Shown here piece by piece: positions 959-39,650 of a stretch of DNA of 64,000 nt. The notes under the pieces were generated by a model. It made no database searches. It saw only the letters and a program-made list of their open reading frames with translations, and was not told the origin of the DNA. Position 1 is the stretch's first letter, and the number at the start of each line of letters is the position of its first letter. This DNA is from Squalus acanthias (taxonomy: Eukaryota), in NCBI GenBank assembly GCA_030390025.1, contig JASTWF010000034.1, positions 2,046,001-2,110,000 of the forward strand, written 5' to 3'. Position numbers and translations under genes: made by a program.

Positions 959-3900
959 CCTGGTCCATCAAATTAGAGAGATGTATGCGTAACTCAAAGA
1001 CTGGTATGGGAGAAATTGATTTCACATCCTGGGGCACTAGCACCACTACTGGGGAAAGTGGGATCTGTACCATTGGGTTGGTCTTCACCTGAACCGTGCT
1101 GGGACCAGTGTTCTGGCGAGTCATATAACTAGGGCGGTAGAGAGGGCTTTCAACTAAATATTGGGGGCCAGGGATCAAATCTGGGAAGATGTGGTAATTC
1201 AAAGAGTAGAAACAAGACAAGTGAGAAAGGTATTAACATGGGAAATGATAAACAGACCGTGACGGGAAGGGATAGAGAGTACAAATCTAAGAGTAAATCA
1301 ACAGATAAGGCTAAAGGTTACAAAAATAATAAAAGGACAAAACTATAGGCTCTGTATCTGAATGCACGAAGCATTCGAAACAAAACAGATGAATTAATGG
1401 CGCAAATAGAATTAAATAAGTACAATCTGATAGCCATTACAGAGACATGGCTGCAGGATGACAAACATTGGGACCTGAATATTGAAGGGTACATGATATT
1501 TAGGAAAAAGTGGAGGGGTGGCTCTGTAAATTAATAATGGTATTAGCGCAATAGAGGGATGACTTAAGTTCAGGAAACCAGGATGTAGAAGCGGTTTGGG
1601 TAGAGATGAGAAATGATGAAGGCAAGAAGTCACTTGTGGAAGTGGTGTACAGGCCCCCTAACAGTAATCACACGTTAGGATGGAGTATCAAGGAAGAAAT
1701 AATGGGAGCTTGTCAGAAAGGTACGGCAATAATCATGGGGGATTTTAATCTACATATAGATGGAAAAATCAGATGGGCAAAGGTAGCCTAGATGAGGAGT
1801 TCATAGAATGTTTTTGGGACAGTTTCTTAGAACAGCACGTTCTGGAGCCAACCAGAGAGCAGGCTATAGTAGACCTGGTATTGTGAAACAAGATAAGATC
1901 AATTAATGACCACATAGTGAAGGTGCCCCTAGGTCGCAGCGATCAGAATATGATTGAATTTTACATTCAGTTTGAGGGAGAGAAGATTTGGTCCAAGACT
2001 AGTTTTTTCTAACTTAAATAAGGGCAATTATGATGGCATGATAGCAGAGCTAGCTAAAGTGAACTGGCAAACTAGAGTAAGCGATAGGTCAATAGAGCTG
2101 CAGTGGCAGACATTTAATGGGATATTTCAGAATACACAGAATAGATCCATTCCAACGAGAAAGAAAAATTCCAAGGGGAGGACCCACCATCTGTGGTTAA
2201 CTAAAAAAGTTAAAGATAGTATCAAACTTAAAGAAAAAGCATATAATGGTGAAAAGATGGGTGGCAGGTCAGAAGATTGGACAGAATATAAACAAACAGC
2301 AAAGAATTACTAAAAGATTAATAACGAGAGAAAAATGAGAGTACGAGAGAAAGCTAGCTAGAAATATAAAAACAGATAGTAAGAGTTTCTATAGCTATTC
2401 TAAAAAGAAAAGAGTTAACAAAGGGAGCGTTGGTGCTATAAAAAGTGAGTCTGGGGAATTAATAATGGAAAATAAGGAGATGGCAGTTGAATTGAACAGG
2501 TATTTTGCATCGGTCTTCACTATAGAGGATACAAGTAACATCCCAGAAACAGCTGTAAATCAGGAAATGGAAGGGAGGGAGGAAGTCAAGAAAATTACAA
2601 TCACCAGGGAAGTAGTACTGAGGAAATTGTCGGAGATGCGGGCTGACAAGTCCCTGGGTCCTGATGGACTTCATCCTAGTGTCTTAAAAGAAGTAGCTCG
2701 TGAGATAGTTGATGCGTTGGTTTTAATTTTCAAAAATTCCCTAGATTCGGAGAAGGTTCCATTAGATTAGAAAATAGCGATTGTAACTCCTTTATTCAAA
2801 AAGGGAGGGAGACAGAAAGCAGGAAACTACAGGCCAGTTAGCTTAACACCTGTCTTAGGGAAGATGCTAGAAACTATTATTAAAGACGTTATAGCAGGGC
2901 ACTTGTAAAAGTTCAAGGTAATCAGGCAGAGTCAGCATGGTTTTGTGAAAGTGAAATCATGTTTAACCAATTTATTGGAGTTCTTTGAGGAAGTAACATG
3001 TGCTGTGGATAAAGGGGAACCGGTGGATGTACTGTACTTAGATTTCCAGAAGGCATTTGATAAGGTGCCACATCAAAGATTATTTCGGAAAATAAAAGCT
3101 CATGGTGCAGGGGGTAACATATTGGCATGGATAGAAATTGGCTAGCTAACCGGAAACAGAGTGAAGGCATAAATGGGTCAATTTCTGCTTAGCAATTGTA
3201 ATGTGTAGTGTGCCATAGGGATAATGCTGGGGCCTCAACTTTTTACAATTTATATAAATGACTTGGATGAAGGGACCGAAGGTATGGTTGCTAAATTTGC
3301 TGATGACAAAAAGATAGGTAGGAAAGTAAATTGTGAAGAGGACATATGGAGGCTACAAAGGTATATAAATAGGTTAAGTGAGTGGGCAAAGATCTGGCAA
3401 ATAGAGTATAATGTGTGAAAATGTGCAATTGTGCATTTTGGCAGGAAAAATAAAAAATAAGCATATTATCTAAATGGTGAGAGATTGCAGAGCTTTGAGA
3501 TGCAGAGGGTTCTGGGTGTCCTGGTGCATGAATCACAAAAAGGTTAGTATGCAGGTACAGCAAGTAATTAGGAAAGCTAATAGAATGTTAACGTTTATTG
3601 CGAGGGGAATTGAATAAAAAAGTAGAGAGATTATGCTTCAGTTATAGAGGGCATTGGTGAGACCACATCTGGAGTACTGTGTACAATATTAGTCTCCTTA
3701 TTTAAGGAAGGATGTAAATGTGTTGGAAGCAGTTCAGAGAAGGTTTACTGGACCAATACCTGGAATGGGCGGGTTGTCTTATGAGGAAAGGTTGGGCAGG
3801 CTAGGCTTGTATCCACTGGAGTTTAGAAGAGTAAGAGGTGACTTGATTGAAACCTTTAAGATCCTGAGGGGTCTTGACAGGGTGGATGCGGAGAGGATGT

Positions 3901-4944: not shown

Positions 4945-5283
4945 GAGCGATCTTTATTCTGTATTCATCCCATGCTGTACCCGAGCTGGTTGTGCTTCAT
5001 TGGGTAGTGTCAAGGGAGCTGTACGCTGCATAGAACACATGATGTATCACAGTTGGTTGTGTTGATGAACCAAATTGGAGGGAAGTTTACTCTGTATCTA
5101 ATCCGTGCTGTACCTGCCCTGTGATTGTTTGGTGGGACAGTGTAGAGGGAGCTTTACTCTGTATCTAATCCGTGCTGTACCTGCCCTGGGACTGTTTGGT
5201 GGGGCAGTGTAGAGGGAGCTGAATTTTGTATCTAACCCACTGTACCTGCCCTGGAGGTATTTGATGAGAGCTTTACTCTGTAA
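4945..5283 (-). repeat. 67-bp repeat family, inverted orientation, about 5 partly decayed copies
   Basis: tttactctgtatctaatccgtgctgtacctgccctg... is the reverse complement of the unit at 1-958. Confidence 0.85.
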
Positions 5284-6033
5284 CAGGGGATTACATGGGG
5301 TACACAGCACAGAACCAGGCCAGTCGGCCCAACCAGTCCATGCCAGCGTTTATGCTCCACTCGAGCCTCCTCCCGTCTTACCTCATCTAATTCTATCAGC
5401 GTAACCCTCTATTCCCTTCTCCCACATATGCTTATCTAACTGCCCCTTAAATGCATCAACACTATTCGCTTCAACCACTCCCTGTGGTAGCGAGTTCCGC
5501 ATTCTCACCACTCTCTGGGTAAAGAGGTTTCTTCTGAATTCCCTATTTGATTTCTTGGTGACTACCTTATATTGATGGCCTCTAACCCTCAGCCTTCAAG
5601 AGAAAGGAGACTTAGCCTGCACATCCTTTCCTGACATTGCCTCACCTTGCTTTTCTGGTATTATCCATGTAAATCTTCTCTGCACCCTCTCCAGTGCCTC
5701 TATATCCTTTTTAGAATATAGCGAGCAGAATTGTACACAGTTTTCCAAGTGTGGTCTAAACAAGGTTCGATGCAAGTTTAGCATAAATTCACTACTTTTT
5801 CAATTCTACCACTCCAGAAATAAACCCGAGTGATTGGTTTGCTTTTTATGGCCTTATTAACCTGTGTCGCTACTTTCAGTGATGTGTGTTTTTGTACTCC
5901 GAGATCCCTTTGCTCCGCTACCCAATTTAGATTCTTATTTTCCAAGTAATATGTGACCTCTCTACTTTTCTTACCAAAATGTAATACCTCAGATTTATCT
6001 GTGTTAAATTTCATTTGCCAATTATATGCCCAT
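5284..6033 (-). mobile_element. CR1 LINE 3' fragment
   Basis: Minus-strand WQMKFNTDKSEVLHFG, RPHLENCVQF, ERVQRRFT, followed by a CR1-type 3' UTR. Confidence 0.88.
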
Positions 6034-6113
6034 TAAAGAGTTATTAGAAATACATAATAAATAATATCAATCAGTAATGGAAAAGTATGGCTAAAACTAT
6101 AATATTTATGTCT

Positions 6114-9100
6114 CCCCCCAGTACTGAACCCTGGGGAACTCCACTGCATACCTCCCTCCAGACCCCAGTACAGAACTCTGGGGAAGTCCACTGTATACCT
6201 CACTCCAGACCAAATTACTGAACCCTGGGGAACTCCACTGTATACATCCCCCCAGACCCCAGTACTGAACCCTGGGGAACTCCACTGTATACCTCCCTCC
6301 AGACCCCAGGACTGAACCCTGGGGAACTCCACTGTATACCTCCAGCCAGCCCCAGTACTGAACCCTGGGGAACACCACTGTATACCTCCCCACAGACACC
6401 AGTACTGAACCCTGGGGAACTCCACTGTATACCTCCCTCCAGACCCCAGTACTGAACCCTGGGGAACTACACTGTATACCTCCTTCCAGACCCCAGGACT
6501 GAACGCTGGGGAACTCCACTGTATACACCCCCCCAGACCCCAGTACTGAACCCTGGGGAACTCCACTGTATACCTCCCTTCAGCCCACAGTACTGAACCC
6601 TGGGTAACTCCACTGTATACCTCCCCCCAGACCGCAGTACTGAACCCTGGGGAACCCCACTCTATACATCCCTCCAGACCCCAGTACTGAACCTTGGGGA
6701 ACTCCACTGTATACCTCCCACCAGCCCCCAGTACTGAACCCTGGGGAACATCACTGTATACCTCCCTCCAGCCCCCAGTACTGAACACTGGGGAACCCCA
6801 ATGTATACCTCCCTCCAGCCCCCAGTACTGAACCCTGGGGAACTCCACTGTATACCTCCCTCCAGACACCAGTACTGAACCCCGGGGAACTGCACTGTAT
6901 ACCTCCCTCCATATCGCAGTACTGAACCCTGGGGAACTCCACTGTTTTACTCCCTCCCGACCCCAGTACTGAATCCTGGGGAACTCCACTGTATACCTCC
7001 CTCCAGACCCCAGTGCTGAACCCTGGGGAACTCCACTGTATACCTCCCTCCAGTCCCCAGTACTGAACCCTGTGGAACTCCACTGTATACCTCCCTCCAG
7101 ACCCCAGCACTGAACCCTGGGGAACTCCACTGTATATCTCCCTCCATACCCCAGAACTGAACCCTCGGGAACTCCACTGTATACCTCCCTCCAGACACCA
7201 GTACTGAACCCTGGGGAAATACACTTTATATCTCCCTTCATACCCCAGAACTGAACCCTGAGGATCTCCACTGTGTACCTCCCTCCAGACCCCAGCACTG
7301 AACCCTGGTGAACTCCACTGTATACATCCCTCCAGACCCCAGTACTGAACCCTGGGAAAATACACTTTATATCTCCCTTCATACCCCAGAACTGAACCCT
7401 AGGGAACTCCACTGTATACCTCCCTCCAGATACCAGTACTTGACCCTGGGGATCGCGACTGTATATCTCGCCACAGACATCAGGTCTGAACCCTGGGAAA
7501 CTCAACTGTATACCTCCCTCCAGACCCCAGTACTGATTCCTGGGGAACTCCACTGTATACCTCCCTCCAGACCCCAGTACTGAACCCTGGGGAACTCCAC
7601 TGTATACCTCCGTCCAGACCCCTGTACTGAACCCTGGGGAACTCCACTGTACACCTCCCCCCAGACCCCAGTACTGAACCCTGGGGAACTCCACTTTATA
7701 CCTCCCTCCAGACCCCAGTACTGAACCCTGGGGAACTCCACTGTATACCTCCCTCCAGACCCCAGTACTGATTCCTGGGGAACTCCACTGTATACCTCCC
7801 TCCAGACCCCAGTACTGAACCCTGGGGAACTCCACTGTATACCTCCGTCCAGACCCCTGTACTGAACCCTGGGGAACTCCACTGTACACCTCCCCCCAGA
7901 CCCCAGTACTGAACCCTGGGGAACTCCACTTTATACCTCCCTCCAGACCCCAGTACTGAACCCTGGGGAACTCCACTGTATACCTCCCTCCAGACCCCAG
8001 TACTGATTCCTGGGGAACTCCACTGTATACCTCCTTCCAGACGCCAATACTGGACCCTGGGGAACTCCACTGTATACCTCCCTCCAGCCCCTGCTACTGA
8101 ACACTGGGGAACTCCACTGTATACCTCCCTCCAGCCCCCAGTACGGAACCCTGGGGAAATCCACTTTATATCTCCCTTCATACCCCAGAACTGGACCCTA
8201 GGAACTCCACAGCATACCTCCCTCCAGCCCCTGCAACTGAACCCTAGGGAACTCCACTGTATACCTCCCTCCAGATACCAGTACTGGACCCTGGGGATCT
8301 CGACTGTATATCTCGCCAAAGACACCAGGTCTGAACCCTGGTGAACTCCACTGTATACCTGCCCCCAAGACAACAGTACTGAATCCTGGGGAACTCCACA
8401 GTATACCTCCCCTCAGACCCCTGTACTGAACCCTGGGGAACTCCACTTGAAACATCCCTGCAGCCCCCAGTAGAGCGTCCTGGGTATGTCCAGTGTTTGC
8501 CTACCTCCAGCCCCTGTTCTACACCATGGGGAGCTCCAATATATAACTCCCTTCAGCCCAGAGTATTGATCGCTGGGGAACTCCACTGTATACCTCACCC
8601 CAGACCCCAGTAATATCCCTCCGGAACTCCACTTTAAACTACACGCAAAATCCTGCTACTGAACCCTGGGGAACTCCACTGCATACTTCCCTCCAGACAC
8701 CAGTACTGAACCCTGGGGAACATCACTGTATACCTCCCTCCAGCCCCCAGTACTGAACACTGGGGAACTCCACTGTATACCTCCCTCCAGTCCCCAGTAC
8801 TGAACCCTGTGGAACTCCACTGTATACCTCCCTCCAGACCCCAGCACTGAACCCTGGGGAACTCCACTGTATACCTCCCTCCAGACCCCAGCACTGAACC
8901 CTGGGGAACTCCACTGTATACCTCCCTCCATACCCCAGAACTGAACCCTCGGGAACTCCACTGTATACCTCCCTCCAGACACCAGTACTGAACCCTGGGG
9001 AACATCACTGTATACCTCCCTCCAGCCCCCAGTACTGAACACTGGGGAACCCCACTGTATACCTCCCTCCAGCCCCCAGTACTGAACCCTGGGGAACTCC

Positions 9101-12100
9101 ACTGTATACCTCCCTCCAGACACCAGTACTGAACCCCGGGGAACTGCACTGTATACCTCCCTCCATATCGCAGTACTGAACCCTGGGGAACTCCACTGTT
9201 TTACTCCCTCCCGACCCCAGTACTGAATCCTGGGGAACTCCACTGTATACCTCCCTCCAGACCCCAGTGCTGAACCCTGGGGAACTCCACTATATACCTC
9301 CCTCCAGTCCCCAGTACTGAACCCTGGGGAACTCCACTGTATATCTCCCTCCATACCCCAGAACTAAACCCTCGGGAACTCCACTGTATACCTCCCTCCA
9401 GACACCAGTACTGAACCCTGGGGAAATACACTTTATATCTCCCTTCATACCCCAGAACTGAACCCTGAGGATCTCCACTGTGTACCTCCCTCCAGACCCC
9501 AGCACTGAACCCTGGTGAACTCCACTGTATACATCCCTCCAGACCCCAGTACTGAACCCTGGGAAAATACACTTTATATCTCCCTTCATACCCCAGAACT
9601 GAACCCTAGGGAACTCCACTGTATACCTCCCTCCAGATACCAGTACTTGACCCTGGGGATCTCGACTGTATACCTCGCCACAGACATCAGGTCTGAACCC
9701 TGGGAAACTCAACTGTATACCTCCCTCCAGACCCCAGTACTGATTCCTGGGGAACTCCACTGTATACCTCCCTCCAGACCCCAGTACTGAACCCTGGGGA
9801 ACTCCACTGTATACCTCCGTCCAGACCCCTGTACTGAACCCTGGGGAACTCCACTGTACACCTCCCCCCAGACCCCAGTACTGAACCCTGGGGAACTCCA
9901 CTTTATACCTCCCTCCAGACCCCAGTACTGAACCCTGGGGAACTCCACTGTATACCTCCCTCCAGACCCCAGTACTGATTCCTGGGGAACTCCACTGTAT
10001 ACCTCCCTCCAGACCCCAGTACTGAACCCTGGGGAACTCCACTGTATACCTCCGTCCAGACCCCTGTACTGAACCCTGGGGAACTCCACTGTACACCTCC
10101 CCCCAGACCCCAGTACTGAACCCTGGGGAACTCCACTTTATACCTCCCTCCAGACCCCAGTACTGAACCCTGGGGAACTCCACTGTATACCTCCCTCCAG
10201 ACCCCAGTACTGATTCCTGGGGAACTCCACTGTATACCTCCTTCCAGACGCCAATACTGGACCCTGGGGAACTCCACTGTATACCTCCCTCCAGCCCCTG
10301 CTACTGAACACTGGGGAACTCCACTGTATACCTCCCTCCAGCCCCCAGTACGGAACCCTGGGGAAATCCACTTTATATCTCCCTTCATACCCCAGAACTG
10401 GACCCTAGGAACTCCACAGCATACCTCCCTCCAGCCCCTGCAACTGAACCCTAGGGAACTCCACTGTATACCTCCCTCCAGATACCAGTACTGGACCCTG
10501 GGGATATCGACTGTATATCTCGCCAAAGACACCAGGTCTGAACCCTGGTGAACTCCACTGTATACCTGCCCCCAAGACAACAGTACTGAATCCTGGGGAA
10601 CTCCACAGTATACCTCCCCTCAGACCCCTGTACTGAACCCTGGGGAACTCCACTTGAAACATCCCTGCAGCCCCCAGTAGAGCGTCCTGGGTATGTCCAG
10701 TGTTTGCCTACCTCCAGCCCCTGTTCTACACCATGGGGAGCTCCAATATATAACTCCCTTCAGCCCAGAGTATTGATCGCTGGGGAACTCCACTGTATAC
10801 CTCACCCCAGACCCCAGTAATATCCCTCCGGAACTCCACTTTAAACTACACGCAAAACCCTGCTACTGAACCCTGGGGAACTCCACTGTATACTTCCCTC
10901 CAGACACCAGTACTGAACCCTGGGGAACATCACTGTATACCTCCCTCCAGCCCCCAGTACTGAACACTGGGGAACCCCACTCTATACATCCCTCCAGACC
11001 CCAGTACTGAACCTTGGGGAACTCCACTGTATACCTCCCACCAGCCCCCAGTACTGAACCCTGGGGAACATCACTGCATACCTCCCTCCAGCCCCCAGTA
11101 CTGAACACTGGGGAACCCCACTGTATACCTCCCTCCAGCCCCCAGTACTGAACCCTGGGGAACTCCACTGTATACCTCCCTCCAGACACCAGTACTGAAC
11201 CCCGGGGAACTGCACTGTATACCTCCCTCCATATCGCAGTACTGAGCCCTGGGGAACTCCACTGTTTTACTCCCTCCCGACCCCAGTACTGAATCCTGGG
11301 GAACTCCACTGTATACCTCCCTCCAGACCCCAGTGCTGAACCCTGGGGAACTCCACTGTATACCTCCCTCCAGTCCCCAGTACTGAACCCTGTGGAACTC
11401 CACTGTATACCTCCCTCCAGACCCCAGCACTGAACCCTGGGGAACTCCACTGTATATCTCCCTCCATACCCCAGAACTGAACCCTCGGGAACTCCACTGT
11501 ATACCTCCCTCCAGACACCAGTACTGAACCCTGGGGAAATGCACTTTATATCTCCCTTCATACCCCAGAACTGAACCCTGAGGATCTCCACTGTGTACCT
11601 CCCTCCAGACCCCAGCACTGAACCCTGGTGAACTCCACTGTATACATCCCTCCAGACCCCAGTACTGAACCCTGGGAAAATACACTTTATATCTCCCTTC
11701 ATACCCCAGAACTGAACCCTAGGGAACTCCACTGTATACCTCCCTCCAGATACCAGTACTTGACCCTGGGGATCTCGACTGTATATCTCGCCACAGACAT
11801 CAGGTCTGAACCCTGGGAAACTCAACTGTATACCTCCCTCCAGACCCCAGTACTGATTCCTGGGGAACTCCACTGTATACCTCCCTCCAGACCCCAGTAC
11901 TGAACCCTGGGGAAATCCACCGTATACCTCCGTCCAGACCCCTGTACTGAACCCTGGGGAACTCCACTGTACACCTCCCCCCAGACCCCAGTACTGAACC
12001 CTGGGGAACTCCACTTTATACCTCCCTCCAGACCCCAGTACTGAACCCTGGGGAACTCCACTGTATACCTCCCTCCAGACCCCAGTACTGATTCCTGGGG

Positions 12101-15100
12101 AACTCCACTGTACACCTCCCTCCAGACCCCAGTACTGATTCCTGGGGAACTCCACTGTATACCTCCCTCCAGACCCCAGTACTGAACCCTGGGGAACTCC
12201 ACTGTACACCTCCCCCCAGACCCCAGTACTGAACCCTGGGGAACTCCACTTTATACCTCCCTCCAGACCCCAGTACTGAACCCTGGGGAACTCCACTGTA
12301 TACCTCCCTCCAGACCCCAGTACTGATTCCTGGGGAACTCCACTGTATACCTCCTTCCAGACGCCAATACTGGACCCTGGGGAACTCCACTGTATACCTC
12401 CCTCCAGCCCCCAGTACTGAACCCTGGGAACTCCACTGTATTCCTCCCTCGAGCCCCAGTACTGAACCCTGGGGAACTCCACTGTATACCTCCCTCCAGC
12501 CCCTGCTACTGAACACTGGGGAACTCCACTGTATACCTCCCTCCAGCCCCCAGTACGGAACCCTGGGGAAATCCACTTTATATCTCCCTTCATACCCCAG
12601 AACTGGACCCTGGGAACTCCACAGCATATCTCCCTCCAGCCCCTGCAACTGAACCCTAGGGAACTCCACTGTATACCTCCCTCCAGATACCAGTACTGGA
12701 CCCTGGGGATCTCGACTGTATATCTCGCCAAAGACACCAGGTCTGAACCCTGGTGAACTCCACTGTATACCTGCCCCCAAGACAACAGTACTGAATCCTG
12801 GGGAACTCCACAGTATACCTCCCCTCAGACCCCTGTACTGAACCCTGGGGAACTCCACTTGAAACATCCCTGCAGCCCCCAGTAGAGCGTCCTGGGTATG
12901 TCCAGTGTTTGCCTACCTCCAGCCCCTGTTCTACACCATGGGGAGCTCCAATATATAACTCCCTTCAGCCCAGAGTATTGATCGCTGGGGAACTCCACTG
13001 TATACCTCACCCCAGACCCCAGTAATATCCCTCCGGAACTCCACTTTAAACTACATGCAAAACCCTGCTACTGAACCCTGGGGAACTCCACTGTATACTT
13101 CCCTCCAGACACCAGTACTGAACCCTGGGGAACATCACTGTATACCTCCCTCCAGCCCCCAGTACTGAACACTGGGGAACCCCACTGTATACCTCCCTCC
13201 AGCCCCCAGTACTGAACCCTGGGGAACTCCACTGTATACCTCCCTCCAGACACCAGTACTGAACCCCGGGGAACTGCACTGTATACCTCCCTCCATATCG
13301 CAGTACTGAACCCTGGGGAACTCCACTGTTTTACTCCCTCCCGACCCCAGTACTGAATCCTGGGGAACTCCACTGTATACCTCCCTCCAGACCCCAGTGC
13401 TGAACCCTGGGGAACTCCACTGTATACCTCCCTCCAGTCCCCAGTACTGAACCCTGTGGAACTCCACTGTATACCTCCCTCCAGACCCCAGCACTGACCC
13501 CGGGGGAACTCCACTGTATATCTCCCTCCATACCCCAGAACTGAACCCTCGGGAACTCCACTGTATACCTCCCTCCAGACACCAGTACTGAACCCTGGGG
13601 AAATACACTTTATATCTCCCTTCATACCCCAGAACTGAACCCTGAGGATCTCCACTGTGTACCTCCCTCCAGACCCCAGCACTGAACCCTGGTGAACTCC
13701 ACTGTATACATCCCTCCAGACCCCAGTACTGAACCCTGGGAAAATACACTTTATATCTCCCTTCATACCCCAGAACTGAACCCTAGGGAACTCCACTGTA
13801 TACCTCCCTCCAGATACCAGTACTTGACCCTGGGGATCTCGACTGTATATCTCGCCACAGACATCAGGTCTGAACCCTGGGAAACTCAACTGTATACCTC
13901 CCTCCAGACCCCAGTACTGATTCCTGGGGAACTCCACTGTATACCTCCCTCCAGACCCCAGTACTGAACCCTGGGGAACTCCACTGTATACCTCCGTCCA
14001 GACCCCTGTACTGAACCCTGGGGAACTCCACTGTACACCTCCCCCCAGACCCCAGTACTGAACCCTGGGGAACTCCACTTTATACCTCCCTCCAGACCCC
14101 AGTACTGAACCCTGGGGAACTCCACTGTATACCTCCCTCCAGACCCCAGTACTGATTCCTGGGGAACTCCACTGTATTCCTCCCTCCAGACCCCAGTACT
14201 GAACCCTGGGGAACTCCACTGTATACCTCCGTCCAGACCCCTGTACTGAACCCTGGGGAACTCCACTGTACACCTCCCCCCAGACCCCAGTACTGAACCC
14301 TGGGGAACTCCACTTTATACCTCCCTCCAGACCCCAGTACTGAACCCTGGGGAACTCCACTGTATACCTCCCTCCAGACCCCAGTACTGATTCCTGGGGA
14401 ACTCCACTGTATACCTCCTTCCAGACGCCAATACTGGACCCTGGGGAACTCCACTGTATACCTCCCTTCAGCCCCCAGTACTGAACCCTGGGAACTCCAC
14501 TGTATTCCTCCCTCGAGCCCCAGTACTGAACCCTGGGGAACTCCACTGTATACCTCCCTCCAGCCCCTGCTACTGAACACTGGGGAACTCCACTGTATAC
14601 CTCCCTCCAGCCCCCAGTACGGAACCCTGGGGAAATCCACTTTATATCTCCCTTCATACCCCAGAACTGGACCCTGGGAACTCCACAGCATACCTCCCTC
14701 CAGCCCCTGCAACTGAACCCTAGGGAACTCCACTGTATACCTCCCTCCAGATACCAGTACTGGACCCTGGGGATCTCGACTGTATATCTCGCCAAAGACA
14801 CCAGGTCTGAACCCTGGTGAACTCCACTGTATACCTGCCCCCAAGACAACAGTACTGAATCCTGGGGAACTCCACAGTATACCTCCCCTCAGACCCCTGT
14901 ACTGAACCCTGGGGAACTCCACTTGAAACATCCCTGCAGCCCCCAGTAGAGCGTCCTGGGTATGTCCAGTGTTTGCCTACCTCCAGCCCCTGTTCTACAC
15001 CATGGGGAGCTCCAATATATAACTCCCTTCAGCCCAGAGTATTGATCGCTGGGGAACTCCACTGTATACCTCACCCCAGACCCCAGTAATATCCCTCCGG

Positions 15101-18100
15101 AACTCCACTTTAAACTACACGCAAAACCCTGCTACTGAACCCTGGGGAACTCCACTGTATACTTCCGCATAGACACCTGGATTGAACCCTGGGGAACTCC
15201 ACTGTATACCTCCCTCCAGCCCCCAGTACTGAATCGTGGGTAACTCCACTGTATACCTCTCTCCTGTCCCCAGTACTGAATCCTGGGGAACTCCTCTCTT
15301 TAGATCCTTCCAGACACCTGGACTGAAACCTGGGGAATTCCACTGTACACCTCTCTCCAGTCCCCAGTTCTGAATCGTGGGGAACTCCACTGTATACCTC
15401 TCTCCAGTCCCCAGTACTGAATCCTGGGGAACTCCACTGTTTACATCCCACCAGCCCTTGCGACTGAAGCCTTAGGAACTCCACTGTATACCTCCTTCCA
15501 GATCCCAGTACTGAACCTTGGGGAATCCCACTGCAGACCTCCCTCCAATTCCCAGTACTGAACCCTGGGGAACTCCACTGTATTCCTCCCTCCAGACCCC
15601 AGTACTGAACCCTGGGGAACGCCACGGTATACCGCCCTCCATAACCCAGTACTGAACCCTAGGGAACTCTACTGTATTCCTCCCTTCGAACCCCAGTACT
15701 GAACCCTGGGGAACTCCACTGTATACCTCCCTCCAGCCCCCAGTACTGAACCCTGGGGAACACCACTGTTTACCTCCCTCCAGACCCCAGTACTGAACCT
15801 TGGGAAACTCAACTGTATATCTCCCTCAAGCCCCCAGTAATGAACCCTGAGTAACTCCACGGTATACTACCCCCAAGACACCAGTACTGAACCCTGGGGA
15901 ACTCCACTGCATACCTCCCTTCAGACCCCAGTACTGAACCCCAGGGAACTCCACTGTATACCTTCCTCCAGCCCCCAGTACAGCGTCCTGGGTATGTCCA
16001 GAGTTTGCCTACCTCCAGCCCCCTGTTCTAAACCCCGGGGAATTCAAGTTTATATCTCCCTTCAGCCCACAGTACTGAACCTTGGGGAACTTCACTGTAT
16101 ACCTCCCCCCAGACCGCAGTACTGAACCCTGGGGAACACCACTCTATACATCCCCCCAGACCCCAGTACTGAACCTAGGGGAACTCCATGTTAACTTCCC
16201 ACCAGCCCCCAGTACTGAACCCTGGGGAACATCACTGTATACCTCCCTCCAGCCCCCAGTACTGAACACTGGGGAACCCCACTGTATACCTCCCTCCAGC
16301 CCCCAGTACTGAACCCTGGGGATCCCCACTCTATACATCCCTCCAGACCCCAGTACTGAACCTTGGGGAACTCCACTGTATACCTCCCACCAGCCCCCAG
16401 TACTAAACCCTGGGGATCATCACTGTATACCTCCCTCCAGCCCCCAGTACTGAACACTGGGGAACCCCACTGTATACCTCCCTCCAGCCCCCAGTACTGA
16501 ATCCTGGGGAACCCCACTCTATACATCCCTCCAGACCCCAGTACTGAACCTTGGGGAACTCCACTCTATACCTCCCACCAGCCCCCAGTACTGAACACTG
16601 GGGAACCCCACTGTATACCTCCCTCCAGCCCCCAGTACTGAACCCTGGGGAACCCCACTCTATACATCACTCCAGACCCCAGTCCTGAACACTGTGGAAC
16701 TCCACTGTATACCTGCCCCCAGACCCCAGTACTGAAGCCTGGGGAACTCCACTGTATACCTCCCTCCAGACCCCAGTACTGAACCCTGGGGAACTCCACT
16801 GTAAACCTGCGCCCAGACCCCAGTACTGAACCCTGGGGAACTCCACTGTATACCTCCCTCCAGCCCCCAGTACTGAACCCTGGGGAACTCCACTGTATAC
16901 CTCCCTCCAGACCCCAGTACTGAACCCTGGGGAACTCCACTGTATACCTCCCTCCAGACACCAGTACTGAACCCCGGGGAACTGCACTGTATACCTCCCT
17001 CCATATCGCAGTCCTGAACCCTGGGGAACTCCACTGTTTTACTCCCTCCCGATCCCAGTACTGAATCCTGGGGAACTCCACTGTATACCTCCCTCCAGAC
17101 CCCAGTGCTGAACCCTGCGGAACTCCACTGTATACCTCCCTCCAGAACCCAGTACTGAACCCTGTGGAACTCCACTGTATACCTCCCTCCAGACCCCAGT
17201 ACTGAACCCTGTGGAACTCCACTGTATACCTCCCTCCAGACCCCAGTACTGAACCCTGGAGAACTCCACTGTATACCTCCCTCCAGCCCCCAGTACTGAA
17301 CACTGGGGAACTCCACTGTATAACTGCCTCCAGACCCCAGTACTGAACCCTGGGGAACTCCACTAGAAACCTCCCTCCAGACCCCAGTACTGAACCCTGG
17401 GGAACTCCACTGTATACCTCCCTCCAGACCCCAGTACTTAACCCTAGGGAACACCACTGTATACCTCCCTCCAGACCCCAGTACTGAACCCTGGGGAACA
17501 CCACTGTATACATCCCTCCAGGCCCCAGTACTGAACCCTGGGGAACTCCACTATAAACCTCCCTCCAGACCCCAGTACTGAACACTGGGGAACTCCACTG
17601 TATACCTCCCTCCAGACCCCAGTACTGAACCCTGGGGATCTCCACTGTATACCTCCCTCCAGACCCCAGTGCTGGACCCTGGGGAACTCCACTGTATACC
17701 TCCCTGCAGACCCCAGTACTGAACCCTGGGGAACTCCAATGTATACCTCCCTCCAGACCCCAGTACTGAACCCTGGGGAACTCCACTGTATACCTCCCTC
17801 CAGCCCCCAGTACTGAACCCTGGGGAACTCCACTGTATAACTCCCTCCAGACCCCAGTACTGAACCCTGGGGAACATCACTGTATACCTCCCTCCAGCCC
17901 CCAGTACTGAACACTGGGGAACCCCACTGTATACCTCCCTCCAGCCCCCAGTACTGAACCCTGGGGAACCCCACTCTATACATCCCTCCAGACCCCAGTA
18001 CTGAAGCTTGGGGAACTCCACTGTATACCTCCCACCAGCCCCCAGTACTGAACACTGGGGAACCCCACTGTATACCTCCCTCCAGCCCCTAGTACTGAAC

Positions 18101-20308
18101 CCTGGGGAACCCCACTCTATACATCCCTCCAGACCCCAGTCCTGAACACTGGGGAACTCCACTGTATACCTGCCCCCAGACCCCAGTACTGAAGCCTGGG
18201 GAACTCCACTGTATACCTCCCTCCAGACCCCAGTACTGAACCCTGGGGAACTCCACTGTATACCTCCCTCCAGCCCCCAGTACTGAACCCTGGGGAACTC
18301 CACTGTATACCTCCCTCCAGCCCCCAGTACTGAACCCTGGGGAACTCCACTGTATACCTCCCTCCAGACACCAGTACTGAACCCCGGGGAACTGCACTGT
18401 ATACCTCCCTCCATATCGCAGTACTGAACCCTGGGGAACTCCACTGTTTTACTCCCTCCCGACCCCAGTACTGAATCCTGGGGAACTCCACTGTATACCT
18501 CCCTCCAGACCCCAGTACTGAACCCTGTGGAACTCCACTGTATAACTCCCTCCAGACCCCAGTACTGAACCCTGGTGAACTCCACTATAAACCTCCCTCC
18601 AGACCCCAGTACTGAACCCTGGGGAACTCCACTGTATACCTCCCTCCAGACCCCAGTACTGAACCCTGGGGAACACCACTGTATACATCCCTCCAGGCCC
18701 CAGTACTGAACCCTGGGGAACTCCACTATAAACCTCCCTCCAGACCCCAGTACTGAACACTGGGGAACTCCACTGTATACCTCCCTCCAGACCCCAGTAC
18801 TGAACCCTGGGGATCTCCACTGTATACCTCCCTCCAGACCCCAGTGCTGAACTCTGTTGAACTCCACTGTATACCTCCCTGCAGACCCCAGTACTGAACC
18901 CTGGGGAACTCCACTGTATACCTCCCTCCAGACCCCAGTACTGAACCCTGGGGAACTCCACTGTATACCTCCCTCCAGCCCCCAGTACTGAACCCTGGGG
19001 TACTCCACTGTATAACTCCCTCCAGACCCCAGTACTGAACCCTGGGGAACTCTACTATAAACCTCCCTCCAGACCCCAGTACTGAACCCTGGGGAACTCC
19101 ACTGTATACCTCCCTCCAGACCCCAGTACTGAACCCTGGGGAACTCCACTGTATACCTCCCTCCAGCCCCATTACTGAACTGTGGGGAACGCCACTGTAC
19201 ACCTCTCTCCAGACCCCAGTACTGAACGCTGCGGAACTCCAATGAATACCTCCTACCAGATTCCCGTGCTGAATCCTGGGGATCTCCACTGTATACCGCC
19301 CTCCAGCCCCCAGTACTGAACACTGGGGAACCCAACTGCATACATCCCTCCAGCCCCCAGTACATCGTCCTGGGTATGTCCAGTGTTTGCCTACCTCCAG
19401 CCCCCTGTTCTAAACCCTGGGGAACGCCAATGTATACCTCCCTTCAGATCACAGTACTGATCGCTAGGGAATTCCACTGTATACCTCCCTCCTGTCCCAG
19501 CTACTGAACCCAGGGGAACTCCACTGTATACCTCCCTCCAGACCCCAGTACTGAACGCTGTGGAACTCCAATGAATACCTCTTTCCAGACCCCCGTACTG
19601 AATCCTGGGGATCTCCACTGTATACCACCCTCCAGCCCCCAGTACTGAACACTGGGGAACCCAACTGCATACCTCCCTCCAGCCGCCAGTACTGAACCCT
19701 GGGGAACCCCACTGTATACCTCTCCCCAGACCCCAGTACTGATCGCTAGGGAATTCCACTGTATACCTCCCTCCAGCCCCCACGACTGACCACTGTGAAA
19801 CTCCGCATTCTACCTCCATGCAGCTCCCAGTAATGAACCCTGGGGAACTCCACTGTACAGCTCCCCCCAGACAGCAATACTGAACCCTGGGGAACTCCAC
19901 TGTATTCCTCCCTCCAGCCCAAAGCACTGAACCCTGGGGAACTCCACTGTATACCTCACTCCATACACCAGTACTGAACCCTGGGGAACTCCACTGTATA
20001 CCTCACTCTAGCCCAAAGCACTGAACCCTGGGGAACTCCACTGTACACCTCACTCCATACACCAGTATTGAACCCTGGGGAACTCCACTGTCTACCTCCC
20101 TCCAGATCCAAATAGTGAAACCTGGGGAACTCCACTGTATACCTCCTTCCGGCACACAATACTGAACGCTGGGTAACTCCACTGTATACCTCCCTCCAGC
20201 CCACAGTAATGAACGCTGGGGAACTCCACTGTATACCTCCCTCCAGCCCCCTGTTCTGAATCCTGGGGCACTACACTGTATACCGCCCCCCAGCCCCCAC
20301 GACTGAAC
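6114..20308 (-). repeat. 47-bp satellite derived from CR1 RT motif, about 300 monomers with higher-order repeats
   Basis: Plus-strand unit gaccccagtactgaaccctggggaactccactgtatacctccctcca (47 nt); the minus strand encodes WREVYSGVPQGSVLG; variant blocks recur every 2.06-2.21 kb. Confidence 0.97.
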
Positions 20309-23243
20309 ATAGAATCATAGGAGCAGGAGTAGGCCATTCGGCCCCACGAGCCTGCTCCACCATTCAATGAGATCATGGCTGATCATCCAAATTCAGTACC
20401 CTGACCCTGCTTTCTCGCCATATCCTTGATCCCTTTAGCCTTAAGAAATATATCTAACTCCTTCTTGAATATATTTAATGAATTGGCCTCAACTGCCTTC
20501 TTGGTAGAGAATTCCACAGGTTCACCACTCTCTGGGTGAAGAAATTCCTCCTCATCTCTGTCCTAAATGGCCTTATCCCTTATCCTTAGACTGTGACCCC
20601 TGGTTCTGGACTCCCCAGCCATTGGGAACATCCTTCCTGCAGCTAGTCTGTCTAGTCATGTTCGAATTTTATAAGTTTCAATGAGATCCCCTCTCATTCT
20701 TCTAAACTCCAGCGAGTATAATCCCAATCGACCCAATCTCTCCTCATACGCCATTCCTGCCATCCCAGGTATCAGCCTGGTGAATCTTCGCTGAACTCCT
20801 TCCATGGCAAGAACATCCTTCCTCAAGATAAGGCGACCAAAGCTGCACACAATACTCAAGATGTGGTCTCACCAAGGCTCTGTGCAACTCCAGCAAGACA
20901 TCCTTGTTCCTGTACTCGATCCCTCTCGCTACAAAGGCCGACATACCATTTGCCTTCTTAACCGCCTGCTGCACCTGCATGCTTACCTTCAGCGACTGGT
21001 GCGCAAGGACTCTCAGGTCTCATTGCACTTCCCCTTCTCCCAATCTATTGCCGTTCAGATAATAATCTGCCTCCTGTTTTTGCCACCAAAGTGGATAACC
21101 TCGCATCTATCCACATTGGGCAGATGCATGGCAAATGCAGTACAATCACCCAACCTGTCCAAATCATACTGGAATTTCTCGGCCACCTCCTCACAGCACA
21201 CACGCCTACCCAGCTTTGTGTCGTCTGCAAACTTGGAGATATTACATCTAGGTCCCTCGTCTAGATCATTAATATATATTGTGATTAGCTGGGGTCTTAG
21301 GACCGATCCCTGCGGTACCCCACTAGTCACTGCCTGCCACTCGGAAAAAGACTCATTTATTCCAACTGTTTGCTACCTGTCTGCCAACCAGTTCTCTATC
21401 CAAGTCAGTACCCTGCCCACAATCCCATGTGCCTTACCTTTACACGCTAATCTCTTATGCGGGACCTTATCGAAAGCCTTCTGAAAGTCCAAATACACCA
21501 CATCCACTGGATCTCCCTTATCTATTTTACCAGTTACATCCTTAAAAAATTCCAGTCGATTAGTCAAGCACGAGTTACCTTATGTAAATCCATGTTGACT
21601 TTGACCGATCCTGTCACTGTTTTCCAACTGCTCTGCTATTACATCTTTTGTAATGGACTCCAACATTTTCCCCACTACCGATGTCAGGCTTCCCGGTCTA
21701 TAATTCCCCGTTTTCTCTCTCCCACCTTTTTTAAATGGTGGGGTAATATTAGCTACCCTCCAATGCATGGGAATTGTTCCAGTGTCTATAGAATTTTGGA
21801 AGATGACTAGCAATGCATCTACTATTTCTAGGGCCACTTCCTTAAGTATCCTAGGATGTAGATTATCAGGCTCTGGGGATGAATCGGCCTTCAATCCCGT
21901 CAATTTCCCTAACGCCATCTCCCGACAATTACTGATTTCTTTCAGTTCCTCCCTCTCATTAGACCCTATGTTCCCCGACATCTCTGGGAGGTTATTTGTG
22001 TCCTCCTTTGTGAAGACAGAACCAAAGTATGTATTCGATTGGTCGGCCATTTTTTTGTTCCCCATTATAAATTCCCCTGATTCTGACTGTAAGGGACCTA
22101 CGCTTGACTTCACCAATCTTTTTCTGTTCACATATCTATAGAAGCTTTTGCAGTCAGTTTTTATGTTCCTCGCAAGCATACTCTCATACTCTATTTTCCC
22201 CCTCTTAATTAATCCCTTTGTCCTCCTCTGGTGAATCCTAAACTGCTCCCAATCCTCAGGTTTGCTGCTTTTTCTGGCTAATTTATATGTCCTCTCTTTG
22301 GATCTTATGCTATCCCTAATTTCCCTTGTTAGCCACGGTTGATTCACATTTTTTGTTTTATTTTTATGCCAAACGGGGATGAACAAATTCTGTAGTTCAT
22401 ACATGCGATCTTTAAATGTTTGCCTTTGCCTATCCAAAATCAACCCTTTGATTAACATTCCCCAATCAATCCTACCCAATTCGCGCCTCGTACCATCGTA
22501 GTTTCCTTCATTTAAATTCAGGACCCGAGTCTGTGAGTCAAATACTTCACTCTCTATTTTAATGAAGAATTCGATCATATTATGATCGCTCCGCCCCAAG
22601 GGGCTTCACACAACAAGATTGCTAATTATTCCTTTCTAATTACATAATACCCAGTCTAAGCTGGCCTGATCTCGAGTTGGTTCCTCGACATATTGGTCCA
22701 GGAAAACATCCCGTATACACTCCAGGCATTTCTCCTCCTCAATATTGTTACTAATTTGGTTTGCCCAATCTAAATGTAGATTTAAGTCATCCATGATAAG
22801 TGCAGTGCCCTTATTGCACGCGTCTCTATTTTCCCGTTTAATGCCATCCCCAACTTCAGCATTACTGTTTGGGGGTCTGTATACAACTCCCACTAACGTT
22901 TTCTGTCCCTTGGTATTTTTCAGCTCTACCCATACAGATTCTACATCATCAGAGCTAATATCCTTCCTTATAATTGTGTTAATCTCCTCTTTAAACAGCA
23001 ATGCTACCCGATTCCTTTTCCTTTTTGCTTGTCTTTCCTGAATATTGAATCCCCCTGGATGTTGAATTCCCAGCCTTGGTGACCCTGGAGCCATGTTTCC
23101 GTTAACCCAATCATATCATATCCGTTTACATATATTTGCGATGCTAATTCATCCACCTTATTACGAATGCTCCTCGCATTCAGACACAAAGCCTTCAGGC
23201 TTGTTTTTTTTAACACTCTTAGACCTTTTAGAATTATTATTTA
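20305..23243 (-). mobile_element. CR1 LINE (whole ORF2, no ORF1) inserted into the 47-bp satellite
   Basis: LNARSIRNKVDEL, YRPPNS, LDFQKAFDKVPH, GVPQGSVLRP, KFADDTK and QRRFTR on the minus strand; tail ctatgattctatgttc at about 20305-20320; frameshifts present. Confidence 0.95.
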
Positions 23244-24918
23244 CCGGGGAACTCCACTGTCTACCTCCCTCCAGACCCCAGTACCGAACCCTGGGGATTT
23301 CCACTGTATACCTCCCCCCAGACACCAGTACTGAACCCTGGGGAACTCCACTGTATACCTCCCTCCAAACCCCAGTATTGATCGCTGGTGAACTTCACTG
23401 TATACTTCGCCCCAGACACCAGTACTGAACCCTGGGGAACTCCACTGTATACCTCCCTCCAGACCCCAGTACTGAACCCTGGGGAACTCCACTGTATACC
23501 TCCCTCCAGCCCCCAGTACTGAACCCTGGGGAACTCCACTGAATACCTCCCTCCAGCCCCCAGTACTGAACCCTGGGGAACTACACTATACCTCCCTCCA
23601 TACACCAGTATTGATCGCTGGTGAACTCCACTGTATACCTCCCTCCAGCACCCAGTACTGAACCCTGGGGAATTCCACTGTATACCTCCCCCCAGACCCC
23701 AGTACTGAACCCTGGGGAACTCCACTGTATACCTCCCTCCAACCCCCAGTACTGAACCCTGGGGAACACCACTGCATACCTCCCTCCATACCCCAGTACT
23801 GAACCCTGGGGAACTCCACTGTATACCTCCCTCCAGAACCCAGTACTGAACCCTGGGGAACTCCACTGTCTACCTCCCCCAGACACCAGTACTGAACCCT
23901 GGGGAACTACACTGTATACCTCCCTCCATACCCCAGTATTGATCGCTGGTGAACTCCACTGTATACCTCCCTCCAGCACCCAGTACTGAACCCTGGGGAA
24001 TTCCACTGTATACCTCCCCCCAGACCCCAGTACTGAACCCTGGGGAACTCCACTGTATACCTCCCTCCAACCCCCAGTACTGAACCCTGGGGAACACCAC
24101 TGCATACCTCCCTCCATACCCCAGTACTGAACCCTGGGGAACTCCACTGTATACCTCCCTCCAGAACCCAGTACTGAACCCTGGTGAAATCCACTGCATA
24201 CCTCCCTCCAGCCCCCAGTACTGAACCCTGGGGAACTCCACTGTATACCACCCTCCAGCCCCCAGTACTGAACCCTGGGGAACTCCACTGTATACCACCC
24301 TCCAGCCCCCAGTACTGAACCCTGGGGAACTCCACTGTATACCACCCTCCAGACCCCAGTACAGAACCCTGGGGATCTACACTGTATACCTCCCTCCATA
24401 CCCCAGTATTGATCGCTGGTGAACTCCACTGTATACCTCCCTCCAGCACCCAGTACTGAACCCTGGGGAATTCCACTGTATACCTCCCCCCAGACCCCAG
24501 TACTGAACCCTGGGGAATTCCACTGTATACCTCCCTCCAGACCCCAGTACTAAACCCTGGGGAACTCCACTGTATACCTCCCCCCAGACCCCTATACTGA
24601 ACCCTGGGGAACTCCACTGTCTACCTCCCCCAGACACCAGTACTGAACCCTGGGGAACTACACTGTATACCTCCCTCCATACCCCAGTATTGATCGCTGG
24701 TGAACTCCACTGTATACCTCCCCCCAGACCCCAGTACTGAATCCTGGGGAATTCCACTGTATACCTCCCTCCAACCCCCAGTACTGAACCCTGGGGAACT
24801 CCACTGTATACCTCCCTCCATACCCCAGTACTGAACCCTGGGGAACTCCACTGTATACCTCCCTCCAGACCCCAGTACTGAACCCTGGGGAACTCCACTG
24901 TATACCTCCCTCCAGCCC
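23244..24918 (-). repeat. 47-bp satellite, distal block, about 36 monomers
   Basis: Same unit as 6114-20308, resuming in register after the CR1. Confidence 0.97.
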
Positions 24919-24989
24919 TCGGTGAGAAGGTTATTAGTGAGTAAGTGCCACTTAATAGCACTGTCGACGGCACCTTTCATCACTTTGCT

Positions 24990-25670
24990 CATTTCACCAG
25001 TCTGCCTATGTCCTCCTGAAGCCTACTACTATCCCGCTCTGTTTGTATATAAAAGTCTATATCATTAATATATATCAAAAAGAGCAGTGGTCCGAATAAC
25101 GACATCTGGGGATACCACTGTACACTTCCCTCCAGTCTGAACAACAACCGTTCACCACTACTCTCGGTTTTCTGTCCCTGAGCCAATGTCAGATCCCCAC
25201 TGCCACTGTCCCTTTGGTCCTATCAAGTCTATTCAATTGTACTTCATCAAATGCATTTTTAAAGTCCATATACTCAACTTCAACCGCACTACCCTCATCA
25301 ACCATTTCCGTTAATTCATCACAGAATTTAATCAAGTTTGTCAGACACACTTTGCCGTTAACATATCCATGCTGGTTGTCATTTATTAATGCATGTTTTT
25401 TTTCCAAAAAGCAGATACTTTTCTCTGTGAATATGGCCTCTAGAGTTTTCCCAACACTGACGTTAGACTGACTGGCCTGCAGTTACTGGGTTTATCCCTC
25501 TCTCCTTTTTTAAACAGGCTGTAACATTTGCAAACCTCCTGTCCTCTGGCACCACTCCCATATCCGAGGAGGATTGAAATATTCGGTCCAGAGCCTGCGC
25601 TATTTCCACCATTCCTTCACTCAGCAATCCTCATACTTCCCATCCAGACCGGGTAAATGTTCTACTTTAC
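24990..25670 (-). mobile_element. CR1 RT fragment containing a native copy of the satellite monomer
   Basis: Minus strand QHGYVNGKVCLTNL, YMDFKNAFD and (with a 1-nt slip) VVNGCCSDWREVYSG..FGPLLFLIYIND. Confidence 0.88.
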
Positions 25671-25679
25671 TGTGGTACA

Positions 25680-37229: not shown

Positions 37230-37690
37230 TGTCAGCTGTGGCTCAGTAGGTAGCACACTCGCCTCTCAGTCAGAGGTTGTGGGTTGAAGTCCCACTCCAG
37301 AGACTTGAGCACCATAAATCTAGGCTGACTCTCCAGTGCAGTACTGAGGGAGTGCTGCACTGTTGGAGGTGCCGTCTTTCGGATGAGATGTTAAACTGCT
37401 CTCTCAGGTGGACGTAAAAGATCCCGTTGCACTAGTTCGATGAAGAGTAGTGAAGTTATCCCTGGTGTCCTGGCCAATAATTATCGCTCAATCAACATAA
37501 CAAAAACTATTAATCTGGGCATTATCACATTGCTGTTTGTGGGAGCTTGCTGTGCGCAAATTGGCTGCCGCGTTTCTCACCTGACAACAGTGACGTCACT
37601 CCAAAAGTATTCATTGGCTGTAAAACGCTTCGAGACGTCCGGTGGTCGTGAAAGACGCGATATAAATGTAAGTCTTTCTTTCTCTTTTAT
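37230..37690 (+). mobile_element. tRNA-derived SINE with a DeuSINE-like central domain and an L2-like tail
   Basis: A box tggctcagtagg, B-box-like ggttgaagtccc, core gccgtctttcggatgagatgttaaac, tail tataaatgtaagtctttctttc. Family assignment is from recall. Confidence 0.8.
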
Positions 37691-39217: not shown

Positions 39218-39251
39218 GTAAGGATCTATGTCCAGTTATTAATTCTAAGTA

Positions 39252-39488: not shown

Positions 39489-39650
39489 GTGAGTACCTGC
39501 TTTTCCAAACCTCTACATCCCTCCATCTCAACTTCACTCTTTGCCCAGAGGATTTACAAACCCAAATGCCCAACACTCATTCAAACCTCTGGCCATTTCA
39601 TAAAACACACATCCACATCCCACACCTTGCACACATTAACTGCTATTCAA

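What the first reader, a model, noticed from the sequence alone, without database searches (positions are those of the whole stretch)
6114..24918. A ~16 kb satellite made from the conserved RT motif of a CR1 LINE
Seen: the 47-bp monomer on the minus strand encodes WREVYSGVPQGSVLG, the GVPQGSVLGP RT motif found in the CR1 copies in this window; about 340 monomers in total. Inference: the array arose by tandem amplification of a short piece of RT coding sequence. Plus-strand transcripts would be a multi-copy antisense match to one of the most conserved parts of CR1 mRNA, so the array could be a small-RNA source; this part is speculative.
Basis: partly seen in the sequence, partly recalled or inferred. 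Interest (0 to 1): 0.75.

Follow-up and report, generated by a model that had tools for sequence, protein, structure and literature searches.

The report
Satellite copied from CR1 reverse transcriptase
A 16-kb run of 47-base repeats is a copied scrap of a jumping gene's reverse-transcriptase code that no longer evolves as a gene; it also occurs in related species and is likely one more transposon-derived satellite, with no silencing role shown.

Summary
Observation confirmed. There are 336 full plus 4 partial 47-bp monomers (15,869 bp) at 6114-20308 and 23245-24918, split by a 2.94-kb 5'-truncated CR1 that keeps the monomer phase. Origin confirmed: the RT-motif match beats 1000 of 1000 shuffles. 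A decayed CR1 copy carries the parent-type motif 170 bp from the array end (34/47 identical; 39-41/47 once majority letters from public contigs are counted, five of six remaining differences silent). The array shows no coding constraint (substitutions 213/185/219 by codon position). About four ~2.1-kb higher-order blocks are ~99% identical. The unit stands in tandem in runs of three organism codes, so this is likely one array of a larger, older family; both array ends join unrelated DNA. The small-RNA idea could not be tested (contigs only). The motif is conserved as protein, much less as DNA (25-31/44 to five other CR1 copies). CR1- and LINE-ORF2-derived satellites are published, and this scan noted several other LINE-derived satellites on other DNA of this genome. 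Verdict: new member of a known kind.

The parts
6114..20308 (.). Main 47-bp array, 301 full monomers, mean 4.1 differences from consensus; RT sense on the minus strand
6667..15161 (.). About four higher-order blocks of 44-47 monomers (2.06-2.21 kb), with shared runs of 20-42 monomers 98.8-99.7% identical
20309..23244 (-). 5'-truncated CR1-type LINE (nearly whole decayed ORF2, short-repeat 3' tail) inserted inside one monomer; phase kept across it (column 26 to column 28), no target-site duplication seen; 87.5% identical over 892 bp to a copy at 26893-27784; a different subfamily from the monomer's parent (28/44 nt at the motif)
23245..24918 (.). Second part of the same array, 35 full monomers, mean 2.8 differences; 0 of 26 variant monomers have an identical twin in the main part, 12 of 26 have one within this part
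24919..24989 (-). About 70 bp of another abundant LINE-like RT gene (reads SKVMKGAVDSAIKWHLLTNNLLT; contigs continue into a YRPISLLSII motif); no Pfam hit at this length, so family not fixed
   Evidence: (tables 2, 7)
24986..25620 (-). Decayed CR1-type RT fragment of the parent kind, with an internal deletion at about 25062; RVT_1 E 3.9e-5 (below Pfam's cut-off); 46-63% amino-acid identity to the most intact CR1 in the window
25092..25137 (-). Stretch homologous to one monomer (reads DWREVYSG then a 1-bp deletion); 34/47 identical as it stands, 39/47 with the majority letters listed for public contigs, 41/47 with two letters from a loose-end consensus
   Evidence: 33 and 38 in the printed register, +1 on shifting the unit by one base, done by hand
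6035..6113 (.). 79-bp AT-rich spacer between the array and the left CR1 piece; no match elsewhere in the window; origin unknown
5295..6034 (-). 3' half of a CR1-type LINE starting at the W-A codons of RT; likely a different subfamily from the right flank (8 of 30 letters differ from the contigs that continue the right flank)
   Evidence: (table 7)

Best explanation
The array is a non-coding satellite whose 47-bp unit is homologous to the WREVYSGVPQGSVLG stretch of a CR1-type reverse-transcriptase gene; it likely arose by one chance duplication in a decayed CR1 copy and likely grew and spread by unequal exchange, with no function that depends on the motif. Shown: unit length, copy number, homology, loss of codon-position constraint, an old CR1 insertion that splits the array in phase, ~99%-identical 2.1-kb blocks, and tandem copies in runs of three organism codes. 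Inferred: the founding duplication (from the Asp codon before W to the second base of the last Gly codon); order of events (array first, CR1 insertion next, 2.1-kb block duplications last); that the family has many more copies than this one array; and that this locus received or regrew an array rather than being the birthplace, since both ends join unrelated DNA. If it has a role, I expect the generic one of satellite heterochromatin (untested).
For: Protein-level score 67 against the masked window, 0 of 1000 dinucleotide shuffles as high (mean 44.4, max 66). Against five other CR1 copies, 33 of 36 mismatches in the SGVPQGSVLG part fall on third codon positions (copies were picked by a PQGSxL pattern, which favours this). 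Five of six majority letters listed for contigs laid on the flank motif move it to the monomer's letter. Seven X1 contigs carry monomer-like sequence running straight into the CR1 continuation (table 7, place 24824). Substitutions among 177 distinct monomers are even over RT codon positions, 213/185/219, chi-square p = 0.20. Tandem joints ('goes back 94') occur in contigs of runs X1, X6 and X18 (organism codes A, B, E); 5593 X1 and 1233 X6 contigs fit two places of the laid stretch; summed depth on the monomer is 6.8 and 11 times the highest CR1-flank bin in the two DNA runs, which the tool says is not a copy number. A second array in the window (33 bp) matches a SINE-like element at 34 of 37 nt. 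Precedent: reviews PMC9659126 and PMC6947457 (passages) list CR1- and L1-ORF2-derived satellites.
Against: DNA-level match to the window alone is marginal (8 of 300 shuffles). The exact parent subfamily was not isolated: 6 of 47 letters still differ from the best reading of the contig majority, which itself mixes subfamilies. A parent-type motif lies only 170 bp from the array end, in the same orientation, and is the only copy of that type in 64 kb; a purely 'arrived from elsewhere' story does not explain that. No short flanking repeat that would seed a 47-bp slippage was seen. X1 may be the assembly's own sample, and organism codes do not show how distant B and E are. Neutrality is shown only for protein coding, not for an RNA or chromatin role.
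Confidence: 0.78

Rival explanations
1. The satellite family is transcribed on the plus strand in the germline and yields piRNAs or siRNAs that slice transcripts of its parent CR1 subfamily, so the array would act as an amplified anti-CR1 guide source.
For: Inferred: the 33 nt from unit position 14 to 46 differ from the parent-family majority at about one site, so guides from there would pair almost fully. PIWI slicing tolerates mismatches (PMC10338343, abstract). The unit is shared at exact 31-mers by more than one organism code.
Against: Match to other CR1 subfamilies is poor: 25-31/44 nt, best 26-nt window 18-21/26 for five copies. Tens of percent of this window is CR1 sequence in both orientations, so antisense CR1 templates do not depend on this array (inference). 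No promoter or host transcript was identified.
Confidence: 0.07
2. The array was born at this locus from the neighbouring parent-type CR1 copy, and later rearrangements put the 70-bp LINE piece and the 79-bp spacer at its ends.
For: Parent-type motif at 25092-25137 lies 170 bp from the array end on the same strand. Left and right CR1 pieces both break at the W-A codons (6027-6034 and 24986-24993).
Against: The neighbouring motif is whole, single and only 34/47 identical to the unit; neither array end continues into CR1 in register; the left piece looks like another subfamily (8 of 30 letters differ; p about 0.01-0.09); the unit is in tandem in other organisms.
Confidence: 0.1
3. The array is centromeric or kinetochore-associated, like the CR1-C-related Cen repeats of chicken.
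For: Higher-order structure with ~99% identical 2.1-kb blocks; chicken Cen2, 3, 4, 7, 11 are listed as CR1-C-derived in PMC6947457 (table passage).
Against: Only 16 kb, in a window with at least eight other short arrays, a 7tm_1 ORF and many intact-order LINE pieces; monomers differ by 15% pairwise.
Confidence: 0.04
4. The minus strand is a translated repeat protein (the 141-nt trimer is open in the consensus), or the resemblance to RT is chance.
For: Stop-free stretches up to 660 codons on the minus strand.
Against: The consensus has no stop on that strand, so long frames are expected; no codon-position bias; 54 of 278 monomers have a stop in the RT register; no homologue among 8000 scored candidates of 77-247 aa; chance rejected at 0 of 1000.
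Confidence: 0.01

Closest known systems
Chicken HinfI (SCR1) tandem repeat and Cen2/3/4/7/11 repeats (seen only as cited in reviews PMC9659126 and PMC6947457, passages; primary papers not read)
   Same: Vertebrate tandem repeat containing CR1 sequence, including part of ORF2.
   Different: HinfI holds the 3' UTR plus partial ORF2 inside its unit; here the whole unit is 47 bp from within the RT domain. Centromeric location is untested here.
PROsat (Phodopus) and Pvc 20 (seal), listed as LINE-1 ORF2-derived (PMC9659126, passages)
   Same: Tandem repeat related to LINE ORF2 coding sequence.
   Different: L1 rather than CR1; in PROsat only a small region of the unit matches ORF2 (88%), while here the match covers the whole unit.
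SINE-derived satellites (sSat1-3) of squamates (PMC10702118; abstract, first fifth of the text and passages)
   Same: Sub-element fragments of a retrotransposon amplified to hundreds of units, shared among related species, homogenised in long loci.
   Different: Units there are 70-290 nt, come from SINEs, and mostly keep a longer terminal unit continuing into the parent; here the unit is 47 nt of coding LINE DNA and neither end continues into the parent.
TE-derived minisatellites (Alu, B1, MaLR; PMC6947457, passages)
   Same: Short unit from within a retroelement; slippage then unequal exchange is the proposed route.
   Different: Those models need 5-10-bp flanking repeats, which I did not see at the unit's ends; this array is longer (340 units).

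Membership tests
Satellite DNA | Long head-to-tail array of a short unit | tested here: met
   336 full 47-bp units, 15.9 kb
Satellite DNA | Homogenisation or higher-order repeats | tested here: met
   Mean 91.6% to consensus; 44-47-monomer blocks about 99% identical
Satellite DNA | High copy number or several loci in the genome | tested here: inconclusive
   Thousands of contigs and high summed depth in two DNA runs, but the tool's depth is not a copy number and no genome is held
Satellite DNA | Heterochromatic, centromeric or subtelomeric location | not testable with these tools
   No chromosome position or chromatin data
TE-derived satellite | Unit collinear with part of a transposable element, beyond chance | tested here: met
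   0 of 1000 shuffles; third-position mismatches; 39-41/47 to the parent-type majority
TE-derived satellite (in-place birth, as in squamate sSats) | Terminal units continue into the parent element | tested here: not met
   Left end joins a 79-bp AT-rich spacer, right end a piece of another LINE; seven X1 contigs do show monomer-like to CR1 continuity, but may be plain CR1 copies
CR1 LINE (parent element) | ORF2 with endonuclease and RT domains | tested here: met
   For the most intact window copy: Exo_endo_phos E 3.1e-21 and RVT_1 E 7e-23. The parent-type flank holds RT only (E 3.9e-5) and is 46-63% identical to it. Feature from PMC4316615, passage
CR1 LINE (parent element) | ORF1 with esterase domain in CR1-like elements | tested here: inconclusive
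   Met for the copy at 28252-28887 (Lipase_GDSL_2 E 4.3e-13); the parent-type flank has no ORF1 left. Feature seen only as a reference title in PMC4316615 and otherwise recalled
CR1 LINE (parent element) | RT phylogeny places the parent in the CR1 clade | not tested
   No named reference RTs were available; the protein search found none
piRNA or siRNA source locus | Germline transcription and 24-32-nt RNAs with 1U bias and ping-pong overlap | not testable with these tools
   Only contigs could be laid; they show no strand, ends or level
piRNA or siRNA source locus | Complementarity to a transposon transcript | tested here: inconclusive
   Close to the parent-type majority (inferred), poor to five other CR1 copies

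The most novel reading that the evidence does not exclude
A multi-species, high-copy satellite built wholly from the RT motif of one abundant CR1 subfamily is transcribed antisense in the germline and serves as a self-amplifying guide-RNA source against that subfamily, kept close to the parent sequence by selection: a host turning a retrotransposon's own catalytic-domain code into a tandem silencing array.
Probability: 0.07. Interest if true: 0.72.

Novelty: new member of a known kind. Interest (0 to 1): 0.3.

Why it matters
The origin of most satellites cannot be traced; here the unit maps to the base on a coding stretch, with five of six remaining differences silent, and the array carries internal clocks (an old CR1 insertion, young 2.1-kb blocks). 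With the other LINE- and SINE-derived arrays noted in this genome it points to a lineage where retrotransposon scraps often become satellites, which makes the question of how satellites start testable by comparing relatives. Taken alone it is one more example of a published process. It would matter much more if the array were shown to make anti-CR1 small RNAs.

Tried and rejected
No whole genome is held, so other loci could not be mapped. No RNA holder listed on record; this says nothing on expression. Two guessed-RNA runs were laid (2 of the 4 guessed-RNA rows): monomer-to-CR1 depth ratio 0.45 (X18) and 0.04 (X19) against 6.8 and 11 in the DNA runs; the runs may be DNA, contigs give no strand and depth is a poor measure, so I draw nothing from it. 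Protein search with the trimer translation: no hit among 8000 scored candidates; with the flank RT piece: none of 98 candidates. Pfam on the trimer: only a sub-threshold PhoR match. Rfam: 0 matches in the window. Folding: a 6-bp hairpin per monomer, no better than shuffles (z -0.71 and -0.45), so structure-driven amplification is not supported. A 30-nt monomer pattern had 0 exact matches in metagenome, prokaryote-genome and viral collections. My early idea that the two flanks are halves of one CR1 with an 8-bp target duplication was weakened (8 of 30 letters differ) and left open. A megablast for long blocks printed nothing and was replaced by a monomer-level scan. Earlier-findings look-ups by sequence, near place, relatives and words found no note on this monomer. 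Nine answered literature searches plus one on PIWI rules showed no paper describing this repeat; the library lacks most subscription papers and Repbase/Dfam were not available. Supplements of PMC11406177 (shark satellite unit lists) were not read and could contain it.

Full report
Observation. Tandem Repeats Finder reports period-47 arrays at 6116-20308 and 23246-24915. Wrap-around alignment splits them into 301 and 35 full monomers plus four partial ones, 15,869 bp in all. The consensus equals window 23452-23498. Its minus strand reads WREVYSGVPQGSVLG once per monomer, the frame shifting each time because 47 is not a multiple of three. The motif occurs in five CR1 copies outside the array. 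No genome is held for this window; that the host is a shark rests on earlier AI notes and my recall of such repeats, not on a test.

Is the RT match more than chance? At DNA level against the rest of the window it is marginal: 8 of 300 dinucleotide shuffles scored as well. At protein level the score is 67 and 0 of 1000 shuffles reached it (mean 44.4, max 66). Against the five other copies, 33 of 36 mismatches in the SGVPQGSVLG part are at third codon positions, although picking copies by a PQGSxL pattern favours that. So the unit descends from RT-coding DNA.

The parent. My pattern search missed a sixth copy because of a frameshift: the CR1 fragment right of the array (24986-25620, minus strand) reads ...CCSDWREVYSG at 25102-25179 and has a weak RVT_1 match. 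Its stretch 25092-25137 matches the unit at 34 of 47 (one search prints 33 in a register one base off). Laying public contigs on this flank lists majority letters at six places in the motif; five move it to the monomer's letter, giving 39 of 47 (80 further rows of that table were not shown). Two more letters from a loose-end consensus give 41 of 47. By hand, five of the six remaining differences are silent in the RT frame (one fits CpG decay; the consensus has no CpG) and the sixth is at the monomer junction. Seven X1 contigs run from monomer-like sequence straight into the CR1 continuation (table 7); they may be close CR1 copies or array ends. The unit thus spans the Asp codon before W to the second base of the last Gly codon. 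I saw no 5-10-bp flanking repeat of the kind slippage models call for (PMC6947457, passages), and folding is no better than shuffles.

After amplification. Substitutions among 177 distinct monomers fall evenly on RT codon positions (213/185/219; p = 0.20); 43 of 278 scorable monomers keep the exact peptide and 54 have a stop. Long open frames on the minus strand (up to 660 codons) follow from a stop-free consensus and found no homologue. A 2.94-kb 5'-truncated CR1 of another subfamily sits at 20309-23244 inside one monomer, with phase kept and no target duplication seen; it is 87.5% identical to a nearby relative, so it is not recent. The two array parts have since diverged: 0 of 26 variant monomers of the short part have an identical twin in the long part, 12 of 26 have one in their own part. 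In the long part, runs of 20-42 monomers repeat at 98.8-99.7% identity, with basic lags of 44, 45 and 47 monomers, giving about four 2.1-kb blocks over 6667-15161. The inferred order is array, insertion, recent block duplications.

Born here? Neither end continues into CR1. The right end joins about 70 bp of another abundant LINE-like RT gene (24919-24989), the left end a 79-bp AT-rich spacer with no match in the window, then the 3' half of a CR1 (5295-6034). Both CR1 pieces break at the same W-A codons, which first suggested one split element, but contigs that continue the right piece differ from the left piece at 8 of 30 letters (p about 0.01-0.09), so they are likely different subfamilies. 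That coincidence, and the parent-type motif lying only 170 bp from the array, remain unexplained and keep in-place birth alive as a rival.

Spread. Twenty of 21 listed runs, from 9 studies, hold part of 23245-25700. I laid four. Tandem joints appear in X1, X6 and X18 (organism codes A, B, E); 5593, 1233, 104 and 19 contigs of X1, X6, X18 and X19 fit two places of the stretch; summed depth on the monomer is 6.8 and 11 times the highest CR1-flank bin in the two DNA runs. The tool warns this is no copy number, and X1 may be the assembly's own sample; X6 is another organism and study. I infer a family larger and older than this array.

Small-RNA idea. Untestable here: only contigs were available, and the two guessed-RNA runs show neither strand nor level. 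On sequence, the motif is conserved as protein, not DNA: 25-31 of 44 nt, best 26-nt window 18-21 of 26, to five other CR1 copies. Only the parent subfamily would be well matched, over about 33 nt with roughly one mismatch (inferred). PIWI slicing tolerates mismatches (PMC10338343, abstract and outline), so the idea is not excluded, but ordinary antisense CR1 copies are already plentiful in the window. I give it 0.07.

Context and literature. Tandem arrays fill 27.2 of 64 kb. The 33-bp array at 34832-35421 matches a SINE-like element at 34 of 37 nt, and the 54-bp array lies between Myb/SANT and DDE_Tnp_4 ORFs. Earlier unchecked notes describe 49-, 51-, 28- and 54-bp LINE-derived satellites on other pieces of this genome. 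Reviews list CR1-derived (chicken HinfI, Cen repeats) and L1-ORF2-derived satellites (PMC9659126, PMC6947457; passages); squamate SINE-derived satellites are the closest described process (PMC10702118). Two shark genome papers (PMC11406177, PMC10620051; passages) discuss satellite or tandem-repeat content without describing this unit in the passages seen; their supplements were not read. My ten answered searches found no description of this repeat.

Verdict. Real feature, origin supported, function unshown. A new member of a known kind, a cleanly traceable CR1-RT-derived satellite. Interest 0.3.

Noticed in passing
window 34832-35421 and 37234-37680: 33-bp tandem array whose unit matches 34 of 37 nt of a SINE-like element with a tRNA-like head (head judged by eye and recall; Rfam found nothing); a second TE-derived array in the window.
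   Followed up: partly
window 39249-42159: Harbinger-like element (Myb/SANT ORF 39249-39791, DDE_Tnp_4 ORF 41599-42159) with a 23-copy 54-bp array (39999-41245) between its ORFs; the unit matches 32 nt at 39627-39657 inside the element.
   Followed up: partly
window 6027-6034 and 24986-24993: The CR1 pieces on both sides of the array break at the same W-A codons with a near-identical 8-mer, yet look like different subfamilies; unexplained.
   Followed up: partly
window 6-972, 5078-5254, 50743-53098, 54641-55065, 56013-56468: A 67-bp repeat occurs as five separate arrays in both orientations; origin not traced.
   Followed up: no
window 47347-48529, 49377-50118, 62770-63368: Related 32-bp and 30-bp purine-rich repeats at three places.
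   Followed up: no
window 28252-31625: Nearly intact CR1-type element: esterase ORF1, endonuclease-RT ORF2 broken by one stop at about 30641.
   Followed up: partly
window 44315-45211: Single-exon 298-aa 7tm_1 receptor ORF followed directly by a 27-bp GC-rich array (45267-45965).
   Followed up: no
window 8358-8685 and its copies at 10565, 12770, 14834: A run of about seven highly diverged monomers (8-14 differences each) is copied almost unchanged in each 2.1-kb block, a marker of an old decayed patch swept up by recent duplication.
   Followed up: partly
window 36112-36918, 56466-57587, 62147-62309: Further arrays (51 bp, 31 bp) with no match elsewhere in the window, and a short 86-bp duplication that reads like C2H2 zinc-finger linker sequence (by eye).
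   Followed up: no
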